Of a DNA stretch of 64,000 nucleotides, positions 27,394 through 62,470 are shown piece by piece. Below the pieces are notes generated by a model. It was not told the DNA's origin and did no database searches. It saw only the letters and a list, made by a program, of their open reading frames with translations. The DNA is from Chrysomallon squamiferum. Taxonomy: Eukaryota; Animalia; Mollusca. The translations under genes were made by a program, and so were the position numbers. The stretch's first letter is position 1. The number at the start of each line of letters is the position of its first letter. The DNA lies in assembly GCA_012295275.1 (NCBI GenBank), contig CM022671.1, positions 28,086,001 to 28,150,000 of the forward strand, in the 5' to 3' direction.

Positions 27394-30300
27394 CTAGCAT
27401 ACTCTGTCCATAATGACATTTCCATCTTTGTCCTTCAATCTTATCCTGCCTGTTGAGTATCTTGTTTCTTGGCGACCATCTGGGTACACTGTTTTCACTG
27501 TACCATCAGGATATTCACGTTTCTGAGGACAAAAAAAAAGAAATCAAATTTAGTTTTTAGAATATACTGATAAAAACATTTATAGTTTTCGTAATTGTAT
27601 TTGAAATAAAATTATTAGTGATGATGATCAACTGAATTATCAAATGCATACCTTCACACAATTATGTATACGGGTCATTCCGTGTCAAATCACCCAATGG
27701 TTTAAACCCGACCGTCTCAGATTTTTATGAAACTTGGTATACTTGTTGACTGGGATCCCACAGCACCAAATCTGACATTTTAGCTCAATCAGACCAGTGG
27801 TGTGGGAGATACGGCCCACGGAATTTTGAGATTTTTGCCAAAAATGGGTGTGACCACCAACCTTAGAACCCTCATATCTCAGGAACTACTGGGCCAATCT
27901 TCACAAAATTGGTATTGTTACAAAGGCAAAATGACAAGGATACCAAATCTGCCAATTTTGTTTAGTTTGGAAAATATTGGAGTACCTTGACCTTTTGACC
28001 TTGAAATTGACCGTGTGGATCACGTGATCTTGAGATGACCTTTATTGAAATTTAATCTCCCACATGTTAACTAAAACATATAAAAGTTTCCTGGGTGTAA
28101 TATTTTTTGTTTAGCCACAATATAGATTTAAAAAATGCACATACCTGAAAATAACACCTTTTCAGCCATTAACATCTGATTGACTAAAACCTGAATGATC
28201 AATTCTGGATGCTAGGAATCACCATCTCTCTTGATCATCGAGTAAGACATTGTAGGCCTACATGTATGCATAAAGTTCACATATAAAAGTTTCCTGGGTA
28301 TAATATTTTTTGTTTAGCCTTAATAGAGATTTAAAAAAATGCATACCTGCATGGATGATTGATACAATGCATTACAATGTACATTTTCTCTGAGACTAAA
28401 AACTCATCTTTGGAGTTAAAACCCACCTGACATGTCTGAAGGAATGCCTGAAGGATATGAAAAGATGCCAAATGGCATGACATGTTCTACACAATCAGGC
28501 TCAATGCATTTTTTAAATCTATATTGTGGCTAAACAAAAAATATTACACCCAGGAAACTTTTATATGTTTTAGTTAACATGTGGGAGATTAAATTTCAAT
28601 AAAGGTCATCTCAAGATCACGTGATCCACACGGTCAATTTCAAGGTCATAGCAAAGGTCAAAAGGTCAAGGTACTCCAATATTTTCCAAACTAAACAAAA
28701 ATGGCAGATTTGGTATCCTTGTCATTTTGCCTTTCTGACAATACCAATTTTATGAAGATTGGCCCAGTAGTTCCTGAGATATGAGGGTTCTAAGGTTGGT
28801 GGTCACACCCATTTTTGGCAAAAATCTCAAAATTCCGTGGGCCGTATCTCCCACACCACTGGTCTGATTGGGCTAATATTTCAGATTTGGTGCTGTGGGA
28901 TCCCAGTCAACAAGTATACCAAGTTTCATAAAAATCTGAGACGGTCGGGTTTAAATTTCTTTTTTTTTGGGGTAATTTGACACAGAATGACCCATACTGA
29001 TAAAAATTACTGATAACATAATTTTAAGCTGGGGAGTATCTTTGTAACAGTTTTTTGAGACAACAGGATTTAGATCTAATGGGGCTTATGTCCATTATAA
29101 ATCAATTCCCAAAAATCTCACAAACCTTAAACTGCTCTGTGTGTATTTCTCTCTGACCATTTGGAAACTCCATTGTTTTGTCACCATTACTCTCAACTCT
29201 AATGACAGTGCCATCTGGAAATATGCTTTCTTCTGATCCATTTGGAAAAAGATATTTTATTGTTTGATCTGGAAATGTGATTTCTTTTGTTCCATCAGGA
29301 TAGTGTTTTTCTATTTGATCACTAAAATAAATTTTAAAAAGAAACAATTACAATTTAGGTTCTCACGATGTCAAACAGAAGACTAACAAATAAGAATGGT
29401 TTTATGAAAAATACTAATATATTAAATTAAAAAACCCACAAGATTCATGTTTTGTTGCATTATTTTCATTACTAAGTTTAATATAAATGAATATATTTTT
29501 ACTTTTTATAGAGATTGGCAGTTAATAGTAACTACAACAGCATTTATTCCCTATAATCGAGTTTGGTAACAAAATATTATGAGAACAAGTTTTTATTAGT
29601 ATTCCTTACTTTTGAAACTGAAGTATCTCTAATCCATCTGGATATGTAGTATGGGTAGTTTGGGCATCAGCAAAAAAATAAACCTGTTTAAGGAAAAAGA
29701 TGTGATATTTATTGAGATCGGTGAATGCCACAGAAGGATAAACATGCATCTCTGCAATGATTGTTCGACTTATTTTAATAATAAAGTGTTTTACAGGTGC
29801 ATATAATTCATTGTCATAAATAAATAATATATACATACATCTTTGAAATCTGTCACATACACAGACAATAAAACATTTAGTAAGTTGATGCTGCTGTTAA
29901 TAGAAATATATGAACAAAAAATACATTTAACTTACAACTCTCTGATCTGGAAAAATCTGTTTGATGTCTCCATTAAAAAAGGAAACAACTATGGACTGAC
30001 CATCAGAAGATATCTCCTTTCTTGTTCCATTTGAGAAGAGAATTTCCCGAGCACCATTTGTATAAGTCCGTTCTATCTAAAAATATATTCACCAAATTGA
30101 ACGTAAGTTATCAGTAATATGCCAAAAATGTTCAATTCTGATTAATATTTTAAGGTTCCTTTTAATGTTTTATTTTTAAAAATTGTATCCAACAAAAACA
30201 AAACTATGTATTATGTCATACTAAATACATTTACATTTAATTATATTATAAATGTAAAGGAATAATTCAATGCACCCACTATTTTTGCTTTCAAAGATAA

Positions 30301-49247: not shown

Positions 49248-52200
49248 ATGGCAGTAGAATCACAACATCAACATAAGCCTGGTGCTTTAAAGCAACAAAA
49301 CAAATCACATAAACATGGTAGACACAGAAGTAAAGGACAGTTAGATCGAGATGCTCAAGGTTTTATTATTTCACTATGTTATTAATAATCTGGAAAATGA
49401 TCGGCTTGCAAAATAAATAATTATTTCGGTCAATCACTCTGGCTACTGGCTACTCGAATTATCACTAACAGTAAAAAGTGCCTTATAGTTATAGTAGGAT
49501 ATGTCACATGGTGTAGTAGGCCAGTTAGTCCATTGAATTCATTTTATTTATATTTTGCCCATCAACAATAAGTTTGATAGGCGAGTAAGATCGAGCGCAT
49601 GGTAAATATATGTTTCATTAATCATTAATTTAATGTAAAAATAATAATATTAATATAGATTATATACTACTTTACTAGATAATAGATATACTAAGATAAT
49701 AATTCGTTAATTAATATGATAAATAATGATGGATGTGAGATCTTGCCGAAATTGTTACTAGAGCGAAATTAAAAAGTCATAAAATTCTCACCCCTTAACT
49801 TCTGTTTTACTAAAATTAATCTTAGTTTTTATTAGTTGAAGTCGTCTAAGATTAATTCGAATCTATATATGTAACGGAATTACGGAGATGAATGAATTAT
49901 TGTCTGTAGAGTAAGGTTATGATAATATAAATATTTTTATGATTGTTTGTACTTTTTTTTAATTTTAGGCAGAGTAAATGTGAAAAGTCTCACAAAGAAA
50001 AATAAGCAGTTGATGAGAAAAATGGACAGACGAAACCAGGTAATGTTTGTTTTTAAATCTGTAATGAAAAGATAGACATTTTATGATAATGCTAAAAAGA
50101 AGAAGAAAGTGTGTATACTTAGATTAATCACAAAGTTAATCTTTAAATAATGTTTGAATTCAAAATTATTTGGTTTGACTTTTTCTTGCCTAGGCCCTTC
50201 AGAAAAGAAAGCAGAAAAGAGATGAAGTTTTGGAGAAAAAAAGAAGTAGAGGTGGCTATGGAACTCCTCCCCACTTTGTGGTGAATTTCATTTTGGCTTT
50301 TAACAGAATCACAAGCTGTAAATATTTTGAATTATTTGTTACTCCAAATGTCATAAACAAAATCATAGTCATATTAAAAAAAAAAATATATTAGTAAATA
50401 TTTTTTTTCTTCTGCAATATTAAAAAGAAAGTGCTACTGTGGAGAGATTACGATTACAGTAAATCATTTTATAAATGAAGATGTTAACTGTTTTCAGGTT
50501 ATTTTGGCATTACACAAAAATGTTGATCCATTATCAGCTTTAAATCTCCTGAAGCAGTGTGATGAAGAAGTAGATTTATTTCAAAATGAACAAGGAATCA
50601 CACACATCAGGTAAATATTTTAGCTGTTTTATATTAAATTGTAGACAGATTATTACTGTGTATCTGTGCGGCATAAAAATAATGAAATTTGTAAACATTG
50701 CGTATTATTTTTCAAAAAGTTATTTTTGCAGAAAAATAGTGGTATCATAACAATAATGATTAGAATGTATGTGTACATAGTGTAACAACATATTTTTCAA
50801 ATTAATACTGTCATACCAATGGCTTCTGTTACAGTTTCTATATATAGAAAGATAGATACAGATACAGATACAGAGATGAATCTATATCCATATATAAATA
50901 TACAGGTAAATCAAAGATATATATAAATATGTAGAAAAATAAATAGATAGATATATATATATATAGATGTGGATATATATACACACACAGGGCTGGATTT
51001 CTCATGTAGGCTTTCTAGGCTAGTGCCTAGGGCGGCAGTTTAGTTACATAAATTTGTATTTTCACATTTGATTTATAAATAAATCCTTATGTAAATGTAA
51101 AACCATGTTTTTGCTTTCAACTAGATCATAAGTTATAACCATTCATATTTTATAAACTAAGTAGGAAGGGTGAGAAGTGTTGACGAGGGGGAGGTAAAAT
51201 TTCTTTAGCCTATGGGTGGCAAGCACATTAAATCCAACTCTGCACATCCATACACATATTGATAGATATATAGATTAAAAATTTCCTCATTTGTCATTTA
51301 TTGTTTTTTAAATCTAATTTTAGCATACCCAGATTTAAGCAGCGTACTTCATTTTTCATACCTGAATGTGGAAACTTGATTGCTATATTGGATGCAGTAA
51401 AGATCGCTGACTCCCTGCTTTGTGTTTTGTCTCCAGAAGAAGGCATTGACTCAGCTGGTGAATTCTGTCTCAGCTGTTTGTGTGGTCAGGGAATTCCTTC
51501 TGCTACATTTGTTTGTCAGGTAAATTAGTTTATTTATTGTTAGTAATTCTGAATATACCACATTTTTGTGTATATTGAAATCTCTGTTTCATGCTAAATT
51601 AGTTTTATTCTGACAGAAATATGATTTTCTTATATCTTGACAATCAAAAGTATTGATATTTTCAGATTTTCTTTGATTAATAGAGAAAAAGTGACTTATC
51701 TCTAAATATGAACTAAATACTTTTTTTTTCTTTTACAGGGCTTCAAGAATTTATCACTAAAAAAACAAGCAGAATCAAGAAAATTAATCCAAAGGAAATT
51801 AGAAAAAAGGTCTGAAAACACTGTTTTATACGGAAAATTATAGATTTGAAGTTTGTCATAAACAAATAGTTTTATACATGTAGCTGTTTAAGTATGGGTT
51901 CTATTTGTTTTAAAAGATGCATTGGACAGTTAATGTATTTAAAATATTGAAAAGTCATTGTGTGTATTATTTTTATTTATTACTGTATTAAAATGACAAA
52001 TTTGTTGAAGGTAAATTTTTCAACATCTGATTTTGATAGATTTCCTACTGACAAGTTCCATTCTCTGGACACATCCCAGGATGCTTTGCTGATTATGCGG
52101 CAAATTACCAATCAGAAGCTTTGTACCATATATTACAGAGAACACAGACCACATTTAGTTGCAGAGAATATAAGTTTTGAAATGGATGGATCAGAAGTGA

Positions 52201-55200
52201 GTATTTTTGCTAATAATGTTTTAAAATAAAGAATTTAATTAGACAGTTTCGATGAACTAAATGGGATTTTTGTTCTAAAAATTCTATAAATATCAATGTT
52301 TCATAGCATGTAGAGATTTTTTAAGTCTGTAAGATTGAAATTATATACCTGTATTATTTATCAGTTGCATATATTATGATTTTCTTAAAACTGTTGATAT
52401 CAAACATTTTAGAAATTATAGTTAGAATTCTTAACAGTTTATGTTTGAATTGTCTTGTCAGGCCTTTGTTTTTTATGTTTTTTTTATATCAAGTAATAAT
52501 ATTAATAAAATCCAAAAATGATGGTTTTAAAGTGATATATGTATTTTGTTGACAGAGTGATTTTGGCACTTTGAAAGTAACAGGATATTTACGTGGGCGA
52601 GCTCTGTCTGTGAATAGACTAGTTCATCTGCCTGGTTGGGGTGACTTTCAGCTGAAACAAATAGATTCTCCAGCAGACCCATATCCTCTGTATTCAAAAA
52701 CAGAAAAACGCAAAAGGAAAAATAGTATAGGAGAGGTAATGGTTAAAATGGGTTAAATTTCAGTGTTTTTGTTTTAAGATTCACCAAATTGTTACATTAA
52801 AGATAATTAAAATATAAAAGTAATTTGAAGAGAGGAACCAACTACATAATCATACTAATTTGTGATTGTTGAAAATATTTTTGTAAACATTTTAAGTATG
52901 TGTCATTAAACTTCGACTTTATTTTTGTAGAACATTGCATACATAATTATTTATGATGGAAAAAATGCCAAAATCACTAATCTGACTTTGTAAATGTATT
53001 TTTAATTTTCATTATCTCACTGCAGTTAGTTATGATTTCTTGTCATACAATATTTAATTATAATGTGATAGAAAAATACATTTACACACACTTATTTGTA
53101 TTGTCACACTGATATTCTGATTTTTTTCTCTTCAGTATTTAAATATTAAATTTATTTAATTTTTTTTCAAATATTTAATTTTAGGACGATGCCAGTATGG
53201 AATCTGAAGACACAACTGATGTCAGGGTATTGGCTGTAGCTGACCAGTCCAAACAAGAATCCCTGCAAGCCGAGGTCATTCCTGACCCACTTGAAGGAGA
53301 ACAGACATGGCCAACAGATGAAGAACTTGCAGATGGTAATAATAAAAAATATACCTGTGTCTGAATCTCCTTCTCGTATGGAAATAATATTGATAATACC
53401 TTTACTATATTTGTAAACAATATTAAATGATTAAATTTTTCAGGAAGGACAAGCACTTGTAATCAAACTATTTTATAAAATATTGAATAATATTGTCTTT
53501 TGTTCCGTATATAATTATGTTTACCTTTCAAAGCTGAAAGAGAAGCTAAGAAGAAAGTCACCAAGCTAGTCCCCAAAGGAACTTCAGAATACCAGGCTTC
53601 ATGGATTATAGATAGTGGCGATGAAGCAGTGAGTATGCCAAATAAATCTTTGGACAAAATAAATATTATATTGATATCTTAAATTTTAAAAACTTTTTTA
53701 AAAAATTTAATTATTTTTATGTGCATTTTGGGAGAAAAGTTACTATTATTATTATTATTATTATTTTAATATGTTGTATTTTTCTTGAGATTCTGAAATA
53801 TTATTTAAAACAAATTTTTTTTTTAGAATTTAAATCTAAAGGAAAATATTTTAAATAATAATACAATATTATTAAAGATGATTGTTAAAGCCATTACCAT
53901 AATCTGTTATATTGTTGAAGTAAGAAGCGTCTTCAGAATAGATGGAGTTATATCTTATTTTGACAGAATGCTGAAGATGATGATGATAGCTCAGATGATG
54001 ATATGGATGCAGACATGCAGGAAGCAGAGGAAGAGGAGGATTCTGATGAAGAAAAACAGTCGGAAATGGCCGAAGATAATGAGGAATATGACACAGTGAG
54101 TTTTTGTTTTCTTCCTCATTAGTTTATTTTCTTACATCACCATTGTTTCTTTTGTTTGTTTCCATTCTAAATGAAGTAGAAATTGCAGACAGATGTATAT
54201 ATCATTTTATAGCGAAATTAGCTGATAACATCATGTTTGTCAGCAATGAAACTACTATAAATGTTAGCAGACCCACAGAATTTAAATTTAAATTTGTGAC
54301 CAGTACATTTTGTTCTTTTTATAAATATAATTTTTAACATTAAAACATAATAATAATAACAAAATCAAAAATAAATTAGAATAAACAGAATGAACAACCA
54401 GTAAATGATGTTTATTTAAAAAAAAAAAATTTGTACCTTGTTTTATATTACATACCAGATTTATTTTTTTGTTCCTAAATTTTCTTGTAAGCATGTTATT
54501 TTAACCAGTTAATATTAATTTTTCAGATGACTATAACTGAAGGAGATGATGCTGCAAACTATGATGCAGCAATGGATTTAGATGAAGAACAGAGGATGTA
54601 AGAATTACATTTGACATTTATATTACTGTTCTGGTCTTTGTAATTAAGAACGTTTCTGTTGTGAAAACAGAATCATGGCATGTTTATTCACCATTCTAAA
54701 TTGGAAAAAAATAATGAAAATGTTTGTAAAGTAGTCTGCAGCAAATGCAACTGTTTAAGTTTATAATGCAGGATCAACTGCAGGCTTTTATTAGTTTAAT
54801 ATTGTGGGGTTTTTTATATTTGATATTATTTTAGGTTAGAAAAGATCAAAGAAGAAAAACTGAATCAGATGTTTCCAGATGAAGTAGATACTCCTGTTGA
54901 CCAGTCTGCTAGACAGAGATTTGCAAGGTGTGGTTTTCATATTTATAAAAAAAAAAAAAAAAAAAAAAAACATTTTTAAATAAATTACTTGAAGTTTGAA
55001 AAACAAATGAAAGTAGCGATGCAGGATTGTTGTAGATTACAATTATGCTGATTAAAAATTACCATTTCTCTGTCAATATATTGATCTATATGGCATAATC
55101 TCATTATCTTATGTACGTTTTGTTCAATTAAAATATTTATTTTTTATATTTTTTTTTATTTATTTAAGTAATAGAATTTGAAATCAGACTGTTGAAAAAT

Positions 55201-58036
55201 AAAATAATATCTTATTTATTTGAAAGTTTTAATGTTTTTTCACATCAATATATTCGCAGATATCGAGGTTTAAAAAGTTTCAGGACATCACCATGGGATC
55301 CAAAAGAAAATCTTCCTAGTGATTATGCCAGAATCTATCAGTTTGAAAACTTTGCCAGAACTAGAAAAAGATGTTTGGCTGAAGACCCAGAAGATGGAGC
55401 TTTGGTACAAACAAATTTCCTGTCTTCCTTTTATTGCATAATACAAAATAACATACTCTAAAGTAAAAGTAAAATATGACATTTTTTTTTTAACAAATAA
55501 TTACATTCACTGTTACTTGTATATGATTATAACTAATATTTTATAATATGAAAAGTTGATTCGAGGCAGATTATAACCTTATATATATATTTGCAAATAT
55601 TCAGTCTCTGTAGCAACTGTACAACATAATATTTTTTCCCTTTTTATCTGATTTAAAAAAAAACAAAGAAAGAAAGAAATTCTTTTGCTTGGATTACTGT
55701 ATAACTAGACATTTTTTAATTTAAAATGATTAAATATAAATATATGTATGTATGTGAAGCTATTTCTTGTAAATGTATGACTATTTACATTTTACTGTTT
55801 ATTTTACTAAATAATTAAACTTTTTTGTTTGTTTGTTTTATAGGCTGGCTGGTTTATTACTGTTCATGTGGCAAATGTTCCAAAAGCTTTTATGGGTAAA
55901 TCCAATAAAATATTTATCTTTGCATGCCTCAAAAAAGTAACTCCATAGGAAAATAAAAATTATTTTGAAACTCTTCATGAAAATATATTTAATAATATCT
56001 GCACTTTCAGTCTAATCTAAATTTGAATGTATCTATGGATTAATGGATATTTTAAAGTCGTACCCTGTCCAGTCCTTTAATAAGTATTGAAAATATGAGA
56101 CTTTTTACATAAAATAAACAAAATATTTTTCTGTCTTTTCACTAAAATTGTATTATTTTTATATCTGTGTTTGCAGAAAATTACAAGCCTGGAACTCCAG
56201 TGGTTTTATTTGGGTTATTACCCCATGAACACAAAATATCAGTCATGCACTTTGTTATAAAAAAACTGCCTGCTGTCACAGAGCCAGTGAAGTCAAAAGA
56301 GCGATTTGTGTTCCATGTTGGATATCGAAGATTCTCAGCTTGCCCAATTTTCTCTCAGCACACAACTGGTAATAAACATAAGGTTGGTGTCATCCTGTTG
56401 AAATATTAGAGATTAGCTTTGTTATTTTTTTTGTTTTGCTTCTGTCACTGCAGATTGGGAAGTTTAAATTATAAGTATTGGAATTAATGTATTCACATAC
56501 AGACTGAAAATGTTCTGTCGGTTTACAGCTGGTAGTAAAATAGAAGGTGTTTGCCGATATATTTATAAATAAAAATATGTTGTGGCATAAGAATGACTGA
56601 TCTCGTTTAAAAAAAAAAAAATGTCCACATTTTTCTTCAGTTTGAACGTTTTCTTCCTCCTGATGCAGCAACAGTTGCCACAGTTTATGCTCCAGTGATG
56701 TTTCCTCCAGCACCTGTGCTTGTTTTTAAAGAGACACCAGAAGGTATTGACATTAACTTCATAAAAATAGATCCACTAGCATTTTTGATATTGACTCATT
56801 TTAACATTATTTCTGTAATGAATATAAATTTTTCAAAATTAAAAAAAAATTAATAAAAAAAAATTTCATAAACGGTAGAAATGCATTTATGGTTGCTCAG
56901 TCTTCAACATGCTTGTAATCATCATAAATGAGGAAAATGGATTGGAGCACAGTTTAAAAATTTTGTTACTTCCTATAGTCTTTTTTTCAAGATTACATTT
57001 TTATGTAATGAGTGTGTGACCAGATATATTTTATTTTATTTTGTGTACTGTGCAGGTCTTCATCAGATAATTGCCAAGGGATCTTTGCTTTCTGTCAATC
57101 CTGATAGAATTGTGGTCAAACGAATTGTTCTTAGTGGATACCCATGCAAAATTTTGAAGAGATCAGCAGTCATCAGATACATGTTTTTCAGCAGAGGTTA
57201 ACAACTTTAAAATGATACTTATAATGAGGAAAGACATTCACTTTCTTGCAGATAGATAAATTTATTTTTGTGCCATACTCCAAAAAATAAACACCTCAGA
57301 ACAATTGAATTCTGATGAATAGAAGCAAGAAAATATTTTCAGTTGTTATAATGTATATGCAACTGTAAAAATTTCTAAAAGCTGGCTATAAATATATTTC
57401 AGTATTTACAGTTGTTACACAAGAAATAATTTTTGTTTTGAATTAATTTATTAACTGATTTTTCATTTTCCTTTGCAGAAGACATTTTGTGGTTTAAACC
57501 AGTGGAACTGAGAACAAAATGGGGAAGGAGGGGACACATAAGAGAACCTTTAGGTTGGAATTTTTTTATATATATAAATCAAGATACATAATACAAGGTT
57601 TCTGTTAAATTAATATAAAATAATTTTAGAATTATGAATTAATTTATTTTTATACCAAAATGACAAAATAAAATATATCTTTTCAAATGGAATGACCAAA
57701 AAAGAAAAAAGTTTTAAGATAATAAAAATTAACTTTTCATGAATTGTAAATACTTTCAATAGTTTTTAAACTTCAACTGTTTGATAAAATTACTTGCAAT
57801 TGATCATTGTATTCTTTATCTGCACTTTTTTTATTTCAGGAACCCATGGTCACATGAAATGTGTTTTTGATGGCAGTTTGAAATCACAAGACACCATTTT
57901 AATGAATCTCTACAAGCGCATGTACCCAAAATGGACATACAACCCCTACGTTGCAAAACCACTAGCTATCAAAGATTATACACAGGAAACAAATAATGTA
58001 ACAGGAGAAGGACAAGCATATGAAATGTTTGAATAA
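49248..58036 (+). CDS. TSR1: Pre-rRNA-processing protein TSR1 (40S maturation, Bms1-like), 20 coding exons, 814 aa
   Basis: Exons 49248-49359, 49969-50039, 50194-50280, 50498-50610, 51324-51519, 51739-51809, 52040-52196, 52556-52735, 53185-53335, 53534-53628, 53967-54095, 54527-54597, 54835-54927, 55260-55404, 55844-55895, 56177-56382, 56641-56743, 57056-57196, 57479-57553, 57840-58036 (2445 nt). Motifs [63 protein letters not shown] and [12 protein letters not shown]. Confidence 0.97.
50988..51242. mobile_element. hAT-like MITE in TSR1 intron 4
   Basis: TIRs CAGGGCTGGATTT...AAATCCAACTCTG. Subterminal GCCTAGGGCGGCA / GCCTATGGGTGGCA repeats. The candidate 8-bp TSD is degenerate (TACACACA vs CACATCCA). 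Confidence 0.62.
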
Positions 58037-58312
58037 ACATTTTTAATAAAAGAAAATAAATTTTAAAAAGTGGAACATCTGTGTAAGCTTTTATAAAATA
58101 GTGTACATTTAGAATAGAATGATGTGCCCAAACATAACTTGATAATGCTGATTTGGATATATTGTACAAATAAATTGTTTACCTCCAGTTTTCAGGCTTT
58201 GAATTTGATAGTGGTGGTTATACATTTGTTACAGAAAAATTTATTTTAAAAATCTTGCCAATTATCTCCTAAGAGTGGAAGTCATCTCTGACAAATCAGT
58301 GTGACTAAAACA

Positions 58313-58351
58313 AATAAACCAGCCAGCCTATAAAACAAACAAACAAAAAAG
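58313..58351 (-). repeat. Perfect 39-bp inverted copy of 55820-55858 (TSR1 intron 14 acceptor plus first 15 nt of exon 15)
   Basis: 55820-55858 = CTTTTTTGTTTGTTTGTTTTATAG|GCTGGCTGGTTTATT. 58313-58351 = AATAAACCAGCCAGCCTATAAAACAAACAAACAAAAAAG. 39/39 reverse-complement match, checked base by base. Confidence 0.95.
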
Positions 58352-58645
58352 CTTTCTTTTATTTATACATTTTACTAAAATTTAAAGGATATTCTTTTTC
58401 ACTAATTGCCAATATTAACTTCAGCTGCTGATCAACTATTATTTCCTGCCTGAATAAGATAGAAAGCAACCACATATCACGTTTATTTTGAAATCTGTTC
58501 TGTATTCTCACAATTCAGAACAGCTCACCAGATACAATCAGGAAAATATCTCAGAAACATCACAATAAAACAATTTTTGTTTAACAGAGAGAACACAATT
58601 TCCTCAGCAGATGCTTGAAGATTCTTGATAGTTCTGTTTAGAAAA

Positions 58646-61600
58646 CTAAGTTTCTTTGCACTGTCTGTCAAACATTTCTTTCAGCAAAGTCAGACTGTCA
58701 CTATATCGAAGCTCGTTTATAAAGGCCTGGTTACGCCATCTGAAATGGTAAATGGTGTCATTTAAATCTGATGGATATTATGAAAAAAGAAAAAAGAAAA
58801 TTTCACTTTGTGGACTGGAATATTATTGTTAATTGGAATATAAAACTCTTACCCAAGTAATAGCACAGAAACTGTTTTCAAATTATGAACAAAAATTATA
58901 AGATAATTCTATAATGTTAAGAATTTTATATTGGCCATATATACCTGGCTCTGATCTGCTTCCATCTCTCCATATGATTCAACAGTAGTTGTTCTGGACG
59001 TGTAGCTAAACCAGGATCCTGTAAAAATAGACTACTCAGTTACATAACAGTTCATAAATTTGATTTTGTGTGAATGTATGTATGTATGTATGTTTGTATG
59101 TATGTGTATTTTTACCTTGCTCGTCAACAGAATTAAAATAACATGTATGAAATAACATTTCATAAATTTTATATATATAAACTGTTTCAAATATTAAAAA
59201 CATCAAACATTTTTTAATGCAAAAGGAAAAAATAAAGAAATTGTTTCTAGTAGTATTATCCTTGTTCATATGAAGAAAACATTTTTGGATTTATGATATA
59301 AATATTAAATGTACTTTTTAAGAAATGTTTGAAAACTTAAAGAATAATGGAATGAGTTAAATACAACTTACAGCATGGATGTCCAGACTTGGGTCTGTCT
59401 GGGGTAGTGGTTCTGGTATGCGCTGGTCTCGATAAACTTCAGAGGTTTCTTGTTTTACAGGGGGTGGCATTGTGTAAACATCAGGAAATTTTTCACTACC
59501 CTTAATGTTCAAAACAAACAGTGAAACTACTTGTGAATGTCAGTATTACAATACGCATCCTGAATTCAAACTCTATCAAAAAAAACATTTTCATAATCAA
59601 ATTCCGTTATCTAAATACTATTAAATTAAAAAACTGCATAAATAATCGAAGTAAATGAGATTTGAATTTCTTATTATTTATGAACACTTATTTTAAAGTC
59701 ACAATGAGATCCTTTGACAAAGCTTTTTGAGAAATATTATAAAAGACAGCTGTGTAATGTGTCACAGGTTGAGATCACCTGTGCCCAAGTATTACATTTC
59801 TTATCACAACAGTTTAAATGTTTTTCTCATCATGATACATTTACAACAAAAAGGCTTTATTATTTACCTCTTCATCTTGAGTACTGTGTGTCTCTGGGGT
59901 TGGTGAACGTTCCCGTACATCTGATTCTTTGACACCTGGATTGTTCTTCATCCATGCTCTGCATATTGGATACAGAGGTGTTGATTCGTCAAACTGAGCC
60001 AGATCCACACTGCGATCAAACAATTTCATCACATATGTATCTGTGAAAAAAGAAAAACAAATTACAATAAAATGCTGTTACCTTTTTCCACTGAGCACTT
60101 AAAAGTTTATCAAAATAAAAAGACCTTTACGTCAATATACCATTATCCAAAACTCTGAAAACTGAAATGCTACCAAAATTTTTTAAAATTTTTGCTTCTC
60201 AAAATGGAGGATAACTCAAATATAAATTGGACACTTTTTAATTATGAGGATACAAAAGCTTTGTCTAATTTACTCACGCTGCTGCTGAGCTAAATCAAAA
60301 TCAAGATCTTCTTTTCGTTTTCTCTTTCTGTAACTTTTCCCTGAGGATTTGCGAGGAGAAACTGCAGGAGAAGCAGACCTAGAACAAAATAATTTAACAC
60401 TAGAATGTAGTAATGTGGATTCCATATCATACCACTATTTTATTTAAGAAAAATAATATAGAATAAACTGCATTAACAATTTAGATGAACCTTTTTCTCA
60501 AATAGTCGTATTTTGTTTTCATAAATCTTCTTAGATAACTATTCAGAAACTATTCAGAAACTATCCCTAACATATTCAGAAATGCAAAGGAACAAAAACA
60601 AAAAAGTAAATTCATGTTACCCACCCAACTGGCACATCTGGCTGACTGCTAGTTCCTTCATCCTCACTTTCCGGCTGACTGAAAATGACAAATCACACAA
60701 CTATTAGAAGCAAATAAACATTCACATTTAGAGCATATAATATATTAATAACAGATATAGCTAAAATCTCTTTAAAAATTGTCTTCTATAAACATTTTGA
60801 TTTTCAAATGTGTTTCATGCTGCTTCTGTTACCTTGTTTGTTATAAAAACTATAAGCCTACAGATTTTCTATTTTTAAAAATATGCTGATATTAGTAACA
60901 TTTCTGTGTTTGGAATACCGAAGTTCTTTCATATTATCTCAGTTTATTAAGTTATCAAAATACGATCCAAACCTTTCATCTTTTTTGTCTACTAAATGTT
61001 GCAGTGTTGCTCCTAATCGAGATCTGGCTGTTGCAACCTCGGCTGAGATACAAATTAATTAAAACATATTAGTATTTTATTGTAGCTATTTGAAGGGTGA
61101 AAGAAAATTTGTTTCTAGCAGAGACACAGGATATAAATAATCTATGTAACTGAATAAAATAAGATATAATATTTTTTTTCTAGCTAATGGGAGTTTCCCC
61201 AAGTTGTGGCATAAATGTTTGAGTTTTCCTATCTATAGGAAATTCTTTCATCACTTGTAAGTATAGAATAAAAAAAATAGACATTAAGTAGGCATTTTCA
61301 TTATGGTACAATCCAATGCTGTCAAGAAAGCAATACATGAATGCAAATGACATTTAAGATATTGTAATAAAAGTGGCCTTCCTACATGGAAAAATCTGAA
61401 TGACATTTTGTCATTTCTTGAATGTGGTCAACATCATTGCGATAAAAAAAAATGTGTTGTTGTTGAAAAAAATATCAGTTCTATATGTAGAAATGTATAA
61501 TGAATGGTCCAAAAATTGTTTTAAATCTAGAATGCAGGAGATATATTTCCCTGCATTCTGGGAAGTAAATTGACAAGGGAGATAAGTGTCTATCAGAAAG

Positions 61601-61844: not shown

Positions 61845-62307
61845 TGGCTTTTTGCCAATGACCATTAAATATATATATAAATATATCTATTCACATCTAT
61901 CGACACAATTCAGATGATGAGATATTATGTGATTCACTGATTGTAGAAATTGTGCTCTTTCAAGTCTTTGCATTTGAATAAAAACATTTAACATTTTAAC
62001 TGTTTAATTTTTCATGAACGTGCTTAATTAAAACCAAAGACATTTTGTTTAAATGCAAACAAAACTAATTTATGATTCATATCGCCAAAAGCGGTCCATG
62101 TTTAACATTTAAGTTGACAATGACATGCCGCAGTAATTAATGATTTAAATTAAAATTAAAGCTCAAAACAATTCCCAAGAAACGTTGTATTGGCTATTTG
62201 GCAATTCGGGGTCGCAATCGCAATCGGTCTGCTGTCAATTCAAATTAGCTGTATCTATTTTTCTAGTATACTTAATTCTGTTTACCATGTTTATGTTTTG
62301 TCGTCAT
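58646..62307 (-). CDS. LIN37: LIN37, DREAM/MuvB core subunit, about 238 aa
   Basis: Exons 62286-62307 (MTTKHKH, inferred start), 60973-61042 ([19 protein letters not shown]), 60625-60678, 60278-60378, 59868-60040 ([34 protein letters not shown], the family hallmark), 59372-59500, 58945-59018 ([13 protein letters not shown]), 58646-58739. Total 717 nt, in frame. Confidence 0.93.
60134..60260. mobile_element. Possible highly decayed Tigger4-like end in a LIN37 intron
   Basis: ATTATCCAAAACTCTGAAAACTGAAATGCTACCAAAATTTT resembles the recalled Tigger4 terminus. No clean TIR pair or TSD. Confidence 0.3.
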
Positions 62308-62470
62308 TATATTGTAGTGGCTTTCACTTTAGACAAGCCGCCATTAAGAACCTAGATTTCTCTTACAATTGTTTTGATTGGTTACAGAAATGAAAAATTG
62401 TAAGCATAACGATGATTTGCCACTTTGTTTTGAAATTTCATTGGTGTTTTGCAACAAAATGGAAGTGTAA
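62308..62470. promoter_or_regulatory. Probable bidirectional promoter of LIN37 and the downstream + strand gene
   Basis: YY1-like GCCGCCATT at 62337-62345, two ATTGG (CCAAT) boxes at 62377 and 62440, TTTGAA at 62429-62434, and a + strand donor GTAAGT near 62466. Confidence 0.55.

What the first reader, a model, noticed from the sequence alone, without database searches (positions are those of the whole stretch)
55820..58351. Perfect 39-nt antisense copy of a TSR1 3' splice site, located just downstream of the gene
Seen: 58313-58351 is the exact reverse complement of the polypyrimidine tract, AG and first 15 nt of TSR1 exon 15, about 2.5 kb away in the convergent TSR1/LIN37 3' zone. The copy begins with AATAAA on the TSR1 strand. 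On the LIN37 strand it places a ready-made splice acceptor in or near the 3' UTR. Exon 15 is 52 nt; skipping it shifts the frame to a stop inside exon 16, an NMD substrate. Inference A: TSR1 transcripts reading past the proximal poly(A) signals (58033-58174) could fold back, mask the acceptor and couple 3'-end choice to unproductive splicing. Inference B, simpler: a recent templated insertion from break repair. An adjacent direct 11-nt match (ATTTTACTAAA, 55801 vs 58369) fits that patchwork signature but is low complexity.
Basis: partly seen in the sequence, partly recalled or inferred. Interest (0 to 1): 0.8.

Follow-up and report, generated by a model that had tools for sequence, protein, structure and literature searches.

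The report
Backwards splice-site copy behind TSR1
A 39-base piece of an intron-exon border of the TSR1 gene sits copied backwards 2.5 kb away, between the ends of TSR1 and LIN37 in a mollusc; it is real DNA and most likely an ordinary DNA-repair scar, with no sign so far that it controls splicing.

Summary
58313-58351 is the exact reverse complement of 55820-55858 (24 nt of intron 14 plus 15 nt of TSR1 exon 15); chance is excluded. One DNA run's contig carries the left junction and breaks where a repeat of 31 nt or more predicts, so an assembly error is unlikely. The exon arm is the donor: the 52-nt exon is found in 15 of 28 distant animal loci, none with a copy, though only one has a long 3' flank. 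A donor within 5 kb, no added tail and filler-like patches matching DNA beside the donor fit a repair-mediated duplication (PMC2671141). The regulatory idea is possible in energy (-59 kcal/mol) but unsupported: four AATAAA hexamers lie upstream, the arm is made about 2.5 kb after the acceptor, a random nearby 39-mer covers an acceptor 6% of the time, and perfect identity gives no covariation. No RNA could be laid. A side lead: on the LIN37 strand the copy is a U/GU-rich tract right behind an AATAAA, so any effect is more likely on LIN37's 3' end. Low interest.

The parts
55820..55858 (+). Donor arm: last 24 nt of TSR1 intron 14 (polypyrimidine tract with a short tetranucleotide repeat, AG at 55842-55843) plus first 15 nt of exon 15
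   Evidence: exon conserved at 52 nt in 15 of 28 distant loci
58313..58351 (-). Copy arm: exact inverted copy, 276 nt behind the TSR1 stop and 294 nt behind the LIN37 stop
   Evidence: left junction and first 12 nt seen in a contig of run X2, whose end and length fit a break at the repeat
58366..58379 (+). Filler-like patch: two overlapping 11-nt direct matches to 55786-55796 and 55801-55811, just upstream of the donor arm
   Evidence: reached by 1 of 529 non-overlapping control windows at the first setting, weaker at others; post hoc
58306..58314 (-). 9-nt inverted match to 55832-55840 (inside the donor arm), possible aborted first round of copying; low complexity
58347..58355 (+). 9-nt match to 55882-55890 in exon 15, overlapping the right end of the copy; possible template switch; low complexity
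55844..55895 (+). TSR1 exon 15, 52 nt; skipping shifts the frame to a stop at 56258
49248..58036 (+). TSR1 coding span, 20 exons, 814 aa (predicted from splice signals and an open frame)
58032..58174 (+). Four AATAAA hexamers upstream of the copy (58032, 58045, 58055, 58169); 58169 has the most U/GU-rich downstream stretch of the six on this strand
58358..58363 (-). AATAAA on the LIN37 strand, 6 nt before the copy; the copy supplies its U/GU-rich downstream stretch
58646..58739 (-). LIN37 last coding exon (acceptor at 58741-58740, stop at 58648-58646); preceding exon 59018-58945
   Evidence: Pfam LIN37 on the exon at 59841-60077; this last exon itself had no Pfam match

Best explanation
The copy is most likely a repair-mediated duplication: a DNA break or stalled fork in the 609-nt gap between the TSR1 and LIN37 stop codons was likely patched by copying from the intron 14/exon 15 border 2.5 kb away, and the scar is likely neutral or nearly so. 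Shown: the exact inverted match, its presence in a DNA run, the direction (the exon arm is ancestral). Inferred: a free 3' end primed on the nearby template, copied 39 nt in inverted orientation, switched template once or more within about 105 nt of the donor (patches at 58306-58314, 58347-58355, 58366-58379) and rejoined. Inferred: in normal TSR1 transcripts intron 14 is removed and the RNA is cut at an upstream poly(A) site before the arms can meet, so the duplex would form mainly in unspliced read-through RNA that is already bound for decay.
For: Exact, single, nearby copy. Donor within 5 kb, chimeric donors, filler, and copied exon/intron borders are all described for repair-mediated duplications (PMC2671141); multi-template germline insertions in PMC8421209. 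Flank patches match the donor's neighbourhood more than control windows: 1 of 529, 1-5 of 396 and 5-12 of 262 non-overlapping windows reach the observed cover. No antisense match over 11 nt in 15 distant loci with exon 15, including L002 with 4,413 nt of 3' flank. A random 39-nt donor within 5 kb covers an acceptor 6.4% and any splice site 12.1% of the time, so hitting an acceptor needs no selection. Identity even across an unconstrained tetranucleotide repeat fits a young copy (95% upper bound about 5-8% divergence). Mouse nascent-RNA data place splicing within 75-300 nt of the 3' splice site (bioRxiv 10.1101/2020.02.11.944595 abstract), against about 2,470 nt here.
Against: No empty site was seen: no close relative and no second allele were available, so insertion is inferred, not shown. 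The X2 contig runs through the left junction without a branch at depth 81, which suggests both chromosomes of that sample carry the copy; a common or fixed allele fits drift but also selection. The patch test is post hoc, uses AT-rich low-complexity words, and vanishes with 25-nt flanks (119 of 638 and 638 of 638 control windows). The copied unit is close to an ideal antisense mask of tract, AG and exon start, and it pairs fully in the predicted fold (39 of 39 pairs). Splicing speed in this mollusc is unknown.
Confidence: 0.78

Rival explanations
1. Same origin, but the copy now serves LIN37's 3' end: on the LIN37 strand it would act as the U/GU-rich downstream element of the AATAAA at 58363-58358, with cleavage predicted inside the copy (about 58348-58328).
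For: Of three LIN37-strand hexamers in the gap, this one has the richest downstream stretch (U 0.50, 8 GU/UG pairs at +20..+60; the others 0.30/3 and 0.17/3), and that stretch is largely the copy.
Against: A crude count on three sites; the hexamer occurs once per about 350 nt on this strand; no 3'-end data; the state before the insertion is unknown.
Confidence: 0.09
2. One reading: TSR1 transcripts that pass the four upstream hexamers fold back, the copy masks the exon 15 acceptor, and exon 15 skipping or intron 14 retention sends the RNA to nonsense-mediated decay, coupling 3'-end choice to output.
For: Duplex -59.4 kcal/mol against about 16 kcal/mol to open both arms locally; 39 of 39 pairs in the minimum-energy fold of 55700-58500; even cleavage 15 nt after the copy's own hexamer leaves a 21-bp, -34 kcal/mol duplex over the AG. 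Skipping and retention both give early stops. Long-range pairings that block acceptors and control unproductive splicing are known (PMC8052449, PMC10789245). Unspliced transcripts read through more often, so both arms can co-occur.
Against: Any perfect inverted copy folds like this, so the energy says nothing about selection. No conservation or covariation. The arm is transcribed about 2.5 kb after the acceptor and behind four hexamers. The read-through, unspliced class is already non-productive. No paper with TSR1, exon skipping and NMD terms together in the library (0 hits).
Confidence: 0.06
3. The copied AG acts as an alternative last-exon acceptor for LIN37, replacing the 31-residue C-terminus by 15 residues and ending at the hexamer at 58245-58240.
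For: A simple weight matrix scores the copied acceptor 6.3, about the same as LIN37's own last acceptor (6.0); open frame to a stop at 58284; a hexamer follows.
Against: The native acceptor comes 412 nt earlier and two hexamers lie before the copied AG; the matrix rests on 18 sites and real acceptors score from -2.9 to 12.3; no junction reads.
Confidence: 0.04
4. Assembly artefact: the copy is not in the animal's DNA.
For: Only 1 of 4 laid runs gave a spanning contig, only the first 12 nt of the copy were seen directly, and X2 may be the source animal.
Against: The X2 contig matches 57841-58324 with one substitution and no gap, has 18 more letters beyond 58324 and is 2,515 nt long; a 31-mer graph of the window predicts a unique path 55829-58342, 18 letters beyond 58324 and 2,514 nt long.
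Confidence: 0.02

Closest known systems
Repair-mediated duplications (RDs) by capture of proximal DNA (Pace et al. 2009, PMC2671141; parts 1-2 of 8, section 10 and passages read), and the 'doublets' of Thomas et al. as cited there (not read)
   Same: Single copy with its donor under 5 kb away (824 of 1,136 human cases); can be inverted (ACSBG2 exon); donors include exon/intron borders (4 partial exon/intron donors) and acceptors include 3' UTRs (2); filler and chimeric donors occur; no added poly(A) tail.
   Different: The core is 39 nt, under that study's 50-bp detection limit; the host is a mollusc, and that study covered vertebrates only; no empty orthologous site could be shown here.
MMBIR-type templated insertions (MMB-TI; Osia et al. 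2021, PMC8421209; passages read) and polymerase-theta/SD-MMEJ templated insertions (PMC7165422, PMC2943611; search listing only)
   Same: Short insertion built from several nearby templates by switching at microhomology; present as germline variants.
   Different: The yeast model cited there has templates within 100 bp, here 2.5 kb; junction microhomology cannot be counted without the empty allele; the enzyme is unknown.
[quoted passage not shown]
   Same: Long-range, strong complementarity; blocking of tract and acceptor is a described geometry; a link to nonsense-mediated decay is known for BRD2/BRD3.
   Different: PCCRs are defined by conservation of both arms within one pre-mRNA; here one arm lies behind four poly(A) hexamers, is a perfect DNA copy of the other, and shows no conservation or covariation.

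Membership tests
Repair-mediated duplication (PMC2671141) | Donor within 5 kb on the same chromosome | tested here: met
   2,454 nt between arms
Repair-mediated duplication (PMC2671141) | Only one other copy in the genome (not a mobile repeat) | tested here: inconclusive
   Unique within the 64-kb window; no whole genome is held
Repair-mediated duplication (PMC2671141) | Donor and acceptor can be told apart | tested here: met
   The exon arm is in frame in TSR1 and the 52-nt exon is conserved in 15 of 28 distant loci
Repair-mediated duplication (PMC2671141) | No untemplated poly(A)/(T) tail of retroposition | tested here: met
   The A-run at the right end of the copy lies inside the 39-nt match, so it is templated; the copy spans an intron-exon border, so it is not from spliced mRNA
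Repair-mediated duplication (PMC2671141) | Microhomology, filler or deletion at the breakpoints | tested here: inconclusive
   Filler-like patches match the donor's neighbourhood (P about 0.002-0.05 with flanks of 35 nt or more, not with 25 nt); the match ends sharply on both sides; true junctions need the empty allele
Repair-mediated duplication (PMC2671141) | Empty site in an outgroup or another allele | not testable with these tools
   Organism B aligns only over 103 nt of exon 20; fetched loci are 52-68% identical in protein and too distant
Regulatory long-range RNA pairing (PCCR) | Both arms conserved across species | tested here: inconclusive
   Absent in the one distant locus with exon 15 and a long 3' flank (L002) and in the stretches held for 14 others; close relatives not available
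Regulatory long-range RNA pairing (PCCR) | Compensatory changes between arms | not testable with these tools
   One sequence with 0 differences; nothing to covary
Regulatory long-range RNA pairing (PCCR) | Stable duplex | tested here: met
   -59.4 kcal/mol, 39 of 39 pairs in the predicted fold; expected for any perfect inverted copy
Regulatory long-range RNA pairing (PCCR) | Both arms in the same pre-mRNA before splicing commits | tested here: inconclusive
   RNA run X8 gave no laid contig; four hexamers precede the copy
Regulatory long-range RNA pairing (PCCR) | Disruption changes splicing and compensation restores it | not testable with these tools
   Needs a minigene or antisense-oligo test

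The most novel reading that the evidence does not exclude
A single repair accident built a two-way 3'-end device: in TSR1 read-through RNA the copy is a built-in antisense mask that forces exon 15 skipping and decay, and on the other strand the same bases serve as LIN37's poly(A) downstream element, so one 39-nt scar ties the outputs of two convergent genes and shows a regulatory long-range RNA duplex at birth.
Probability: 0.05. Interest if true: 0.65.

Novelty: new member of a known kind. Interest (0 to 1): 0.16.

Why it matters
As a neutral scar it adds one molluscan example to a class mapped mainly in vertebrates, which matters little. If the fold-back were shown to work, it would be a case where an element behind the poly(A) signals controls an internal exon, and a natural test of how conserved long-range RNA pairings first arise: a perfect young duplex whose effect could be measured by comparing chromosomes or species with and without it.

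Tried and rejected
No whole genome is held, so the genome-wide rate of such copies is unknown. Rfam found nothing in the window (0 matches), so no snoRNA or other known RNA explains the copy. DNA shares of 0.93-0.94 in X1-X4 cannot tell presence from absence (the copy is about 2% of the words). X5 gave only a 36-nt low-complexity piece and X10 (organism B) only exon 20 (11 differences in 103 nt); neither covers the copy, and holes prove nothing. Of 42 fetched loci, 14 were left out of the orthologue test (intron-less, too short or weak matches); of the 28 examined, 13 had no exon 15 in the stretch held. Local templates within about 200 nt of the copy explain nothing beyond 7-nt matches. Chance similarity was rejected. 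Retroposition was rejected because the copy spans an intron-exon border. The copy's AATAAA as a designed signal was rejected as common (20 such hexamers lie in TSR1 introns). No look-alike windows or notes exist for this genome or its relatives in the scan's index. Paper searches for a direct precedent: 0 papers; 0; 1; 6; 3. No supplements were opened; Table S1 of PMC2671141 may hold orientation counts.

Full report
Positions 58313-58351 are the exact reverse complement of 55820-55858. The match ends sharply on both sides. Under Markov models of order 0 to 6 trained on the rest of the window, the expected number of such pairs in 64 kb is 1e-11 to 1e-13. A blastn of the window against itself reports only this pair and a foldback element at about 27.7-29.0 kb. 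The other 18 TSR1 acceptors have downstream antisense matches of 8-14 nt.

Twenty exons from 49248 to 58036 give a stop-free frame of 814 aa; exon 15 is 55844-55895; skipping it gives a stop at 56258, 124 nt before the end of exon 16 with four junctions downstream, and keeping intron 14 gives a stop at residue 575. Three exons match Pfam RIBIOP_C and one minus-strand exon matches Pfam LIN37. The best named relatives of exon 16 are TSR1 proteins of Lottia (76%), Haliotis (73%), a chiton (72%) and Pomacea (71%), so the host is a mollusc, likely a gastropod. The LIN37 stop is at 58648-58646, which leaves 609 nt between the two stops, with the copy near the middle. Rfam finds nothing in the window.

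It is in the DNA. Eleven runs were listed, nine holding the stretch or a part. Four were laid on 57841-58324, which includes the first 12 nt of the copy. In run X2 one contig of depth 81 covers the whole stretch with one substitution and no gap. It has 18 further letters beyond 58324 and is 2,515 nt long. A 31-mer graph of the window predicts a unique path between the arms of 55829-58342, that is 18 letters beyond 58324 and 2,514 nt. This reading assumes the tool counts record positions on the record's own strand, and the close match supports that. So X2's reads hold the copy as a repeat of at least 31 nt. The lack of a break at the left junction suggests that both chromosomes of that sample carry it (inference; contigs drop rare variants, and X2 may be the source animal). 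The other three runs gave nothing on the copy: X8 (RNA) had no laid contig, X5 only a low-complexity piece, and X10 (organism B) only 103 nt of exon 20 at 89% identity.

Direction and anatomy point to a repair patch. The exon arm is the donor: it is in frame, and a 52-nt exon 15 was found in 15 of 28 distant animal TSR1 loci examined (28 of 42 fetched). The copy spans an intron-exon border and has no added tail, so it came from DNA or unspliced RNA, not mRNA. Around it lie short matches to the 105 nt around the donor: 58306-58314 to 55832-55840, 58347-58355 to 55882-55890, and 58366-58379 to 55786-55796 and 55801-55811. With 35-nt flanks and words of 9 or 11 nt, 1 of 529 non-overlapping control windows reaches the same cover; with wider settings 1-5 of 396 and 5-12 of 262; with 25-nt flanks, which cut off the main patch, the signal is gone (overlapping-window versions give P of 0.001-0.025). 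This is modest, post hoc support for several rounds of template switching. Pace et al. (PMC2671141; parts 1-2 of 8, section 10 and passages read) describe this class in vertebrates: 824 of 1,136 human duplicons had donors within 5 kb, breakpoints showed microhomology, filler or deletion, some were chimeric, one exon was copied in inverted orientation, four donors were partial exon/intron pieces and two acceptors lay in 3' UTRs. Osia et al. (PMC8421209; passages) describe germline insertions from up to five templates.

The regulatory reading is feasible but unsupported. The duplex is -59.4 kcal/mol, opening both arms costs about 16 kcal/mol, and all 39 pairs form in the predicted fold of 55700-58500; cleavage 15 nt behind the copy's own hexamer would still leave 21 bp over the AG. 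But any perfect inverted copy gives such numbers. A random 39-nt donor within 5 kb of this site covers an acceptor 6.4% of the time and some splice site 12.1% (LIN37 borders approximate). An AATAAA lies in 9.6% of 39-mers. Zero differences bound the age only loosely (under about 5-8% divergence) and give no covariation. None of the 15 distant loci has an antisense match over 11 nt, but only L002 (4,413 nt) and L011 (273 nt) reach past the last exon, so this is weak. Four hexamers precede the copy, and the one at 58169 has the most U/GU-rich downstream stretch. [quoted passage not shown] The duplex would then form mainly in RNA that has already failed. These kinetics are borrowed from mammals. 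Known regulatory pairings (PMC8052449, PMC10789245; passages) are recognised by conservation and mutagenesis, neither available here. Searches for a TSR1 precedent and for this geometry returned 0 papers; these are narrow word searches of one library.

If the copy does anything, LIN37 is the nearer target. On that strand an AATAAA at 58363-58358 stands 6 nt before the copy, and the copied tract gives it the richest U/GU downstream stretch of the three hexamers in the gap. The copied acceptor scores like LIN37's own last acceptor on a crude matrix (6.3 against 6.0) and would give a 15-residue tail in place of 31, but it lies 412 nt behind the native acceptor. Both ideas are untested.

Four earlier findings of this scan describe similar short copies of exons or splice sites in other genomes, each read as a repair or replication scar. 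They are unchecked AI notes and are not support, but they suggest that the pattern recurs when gene-dense windows are scanned.

Verdict: a real, probably young repair-mediated duplication (origin by templated copying about 0.95; neutral or nearly so 0.78), a new member of a known kind. Interest 0.16. The most novel reading not excluded, a working antisense mask with a second role at LIN37's 3' end, has probability about 0.05 and would deserve about 0.65.

Noticed in passing
window about 27670-28995: A foldback element of about 1.3 kb: inverted arms of about 450 nt at 96% identity (27701-28139 and 28505-28955) that extend to imperfect terminal repeats near 27672 and 28993, with a third 60-nt copy of an arm segment at 28279-28338 in the spacer. 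Looks like a non-autonomous DNA transposon; it is the strongest RNA hairpin in the window if transcribed.
   Followed up: partly
window 58032-58037: The first AATAAA of the TSR1 3' zone overlaps the TSR1 stop codon (58034-58036), and two more follow within 30 nt.
   Followed up: no
window 57895: Synonymous-looking variable site in TSR1 exon 20: C in the window, G in the X2 contig, A in organism B.
   Followed up: no
window 62090-62400: Short stretch between the likely LIN37 start region (minus strand) and what looks like the start of another gene on the plus strand, suggesting a head-to-head promoter; seen in the sequence only.
   Followed up: no
L001, L002, L007, L010, L011 and ten more loci: TSR1 intron positions around exons 13-20, including the 52-nt exon 15, are shared with distant animals whose protein is only 57-68% identical in exon 16.
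   Followed up: partly
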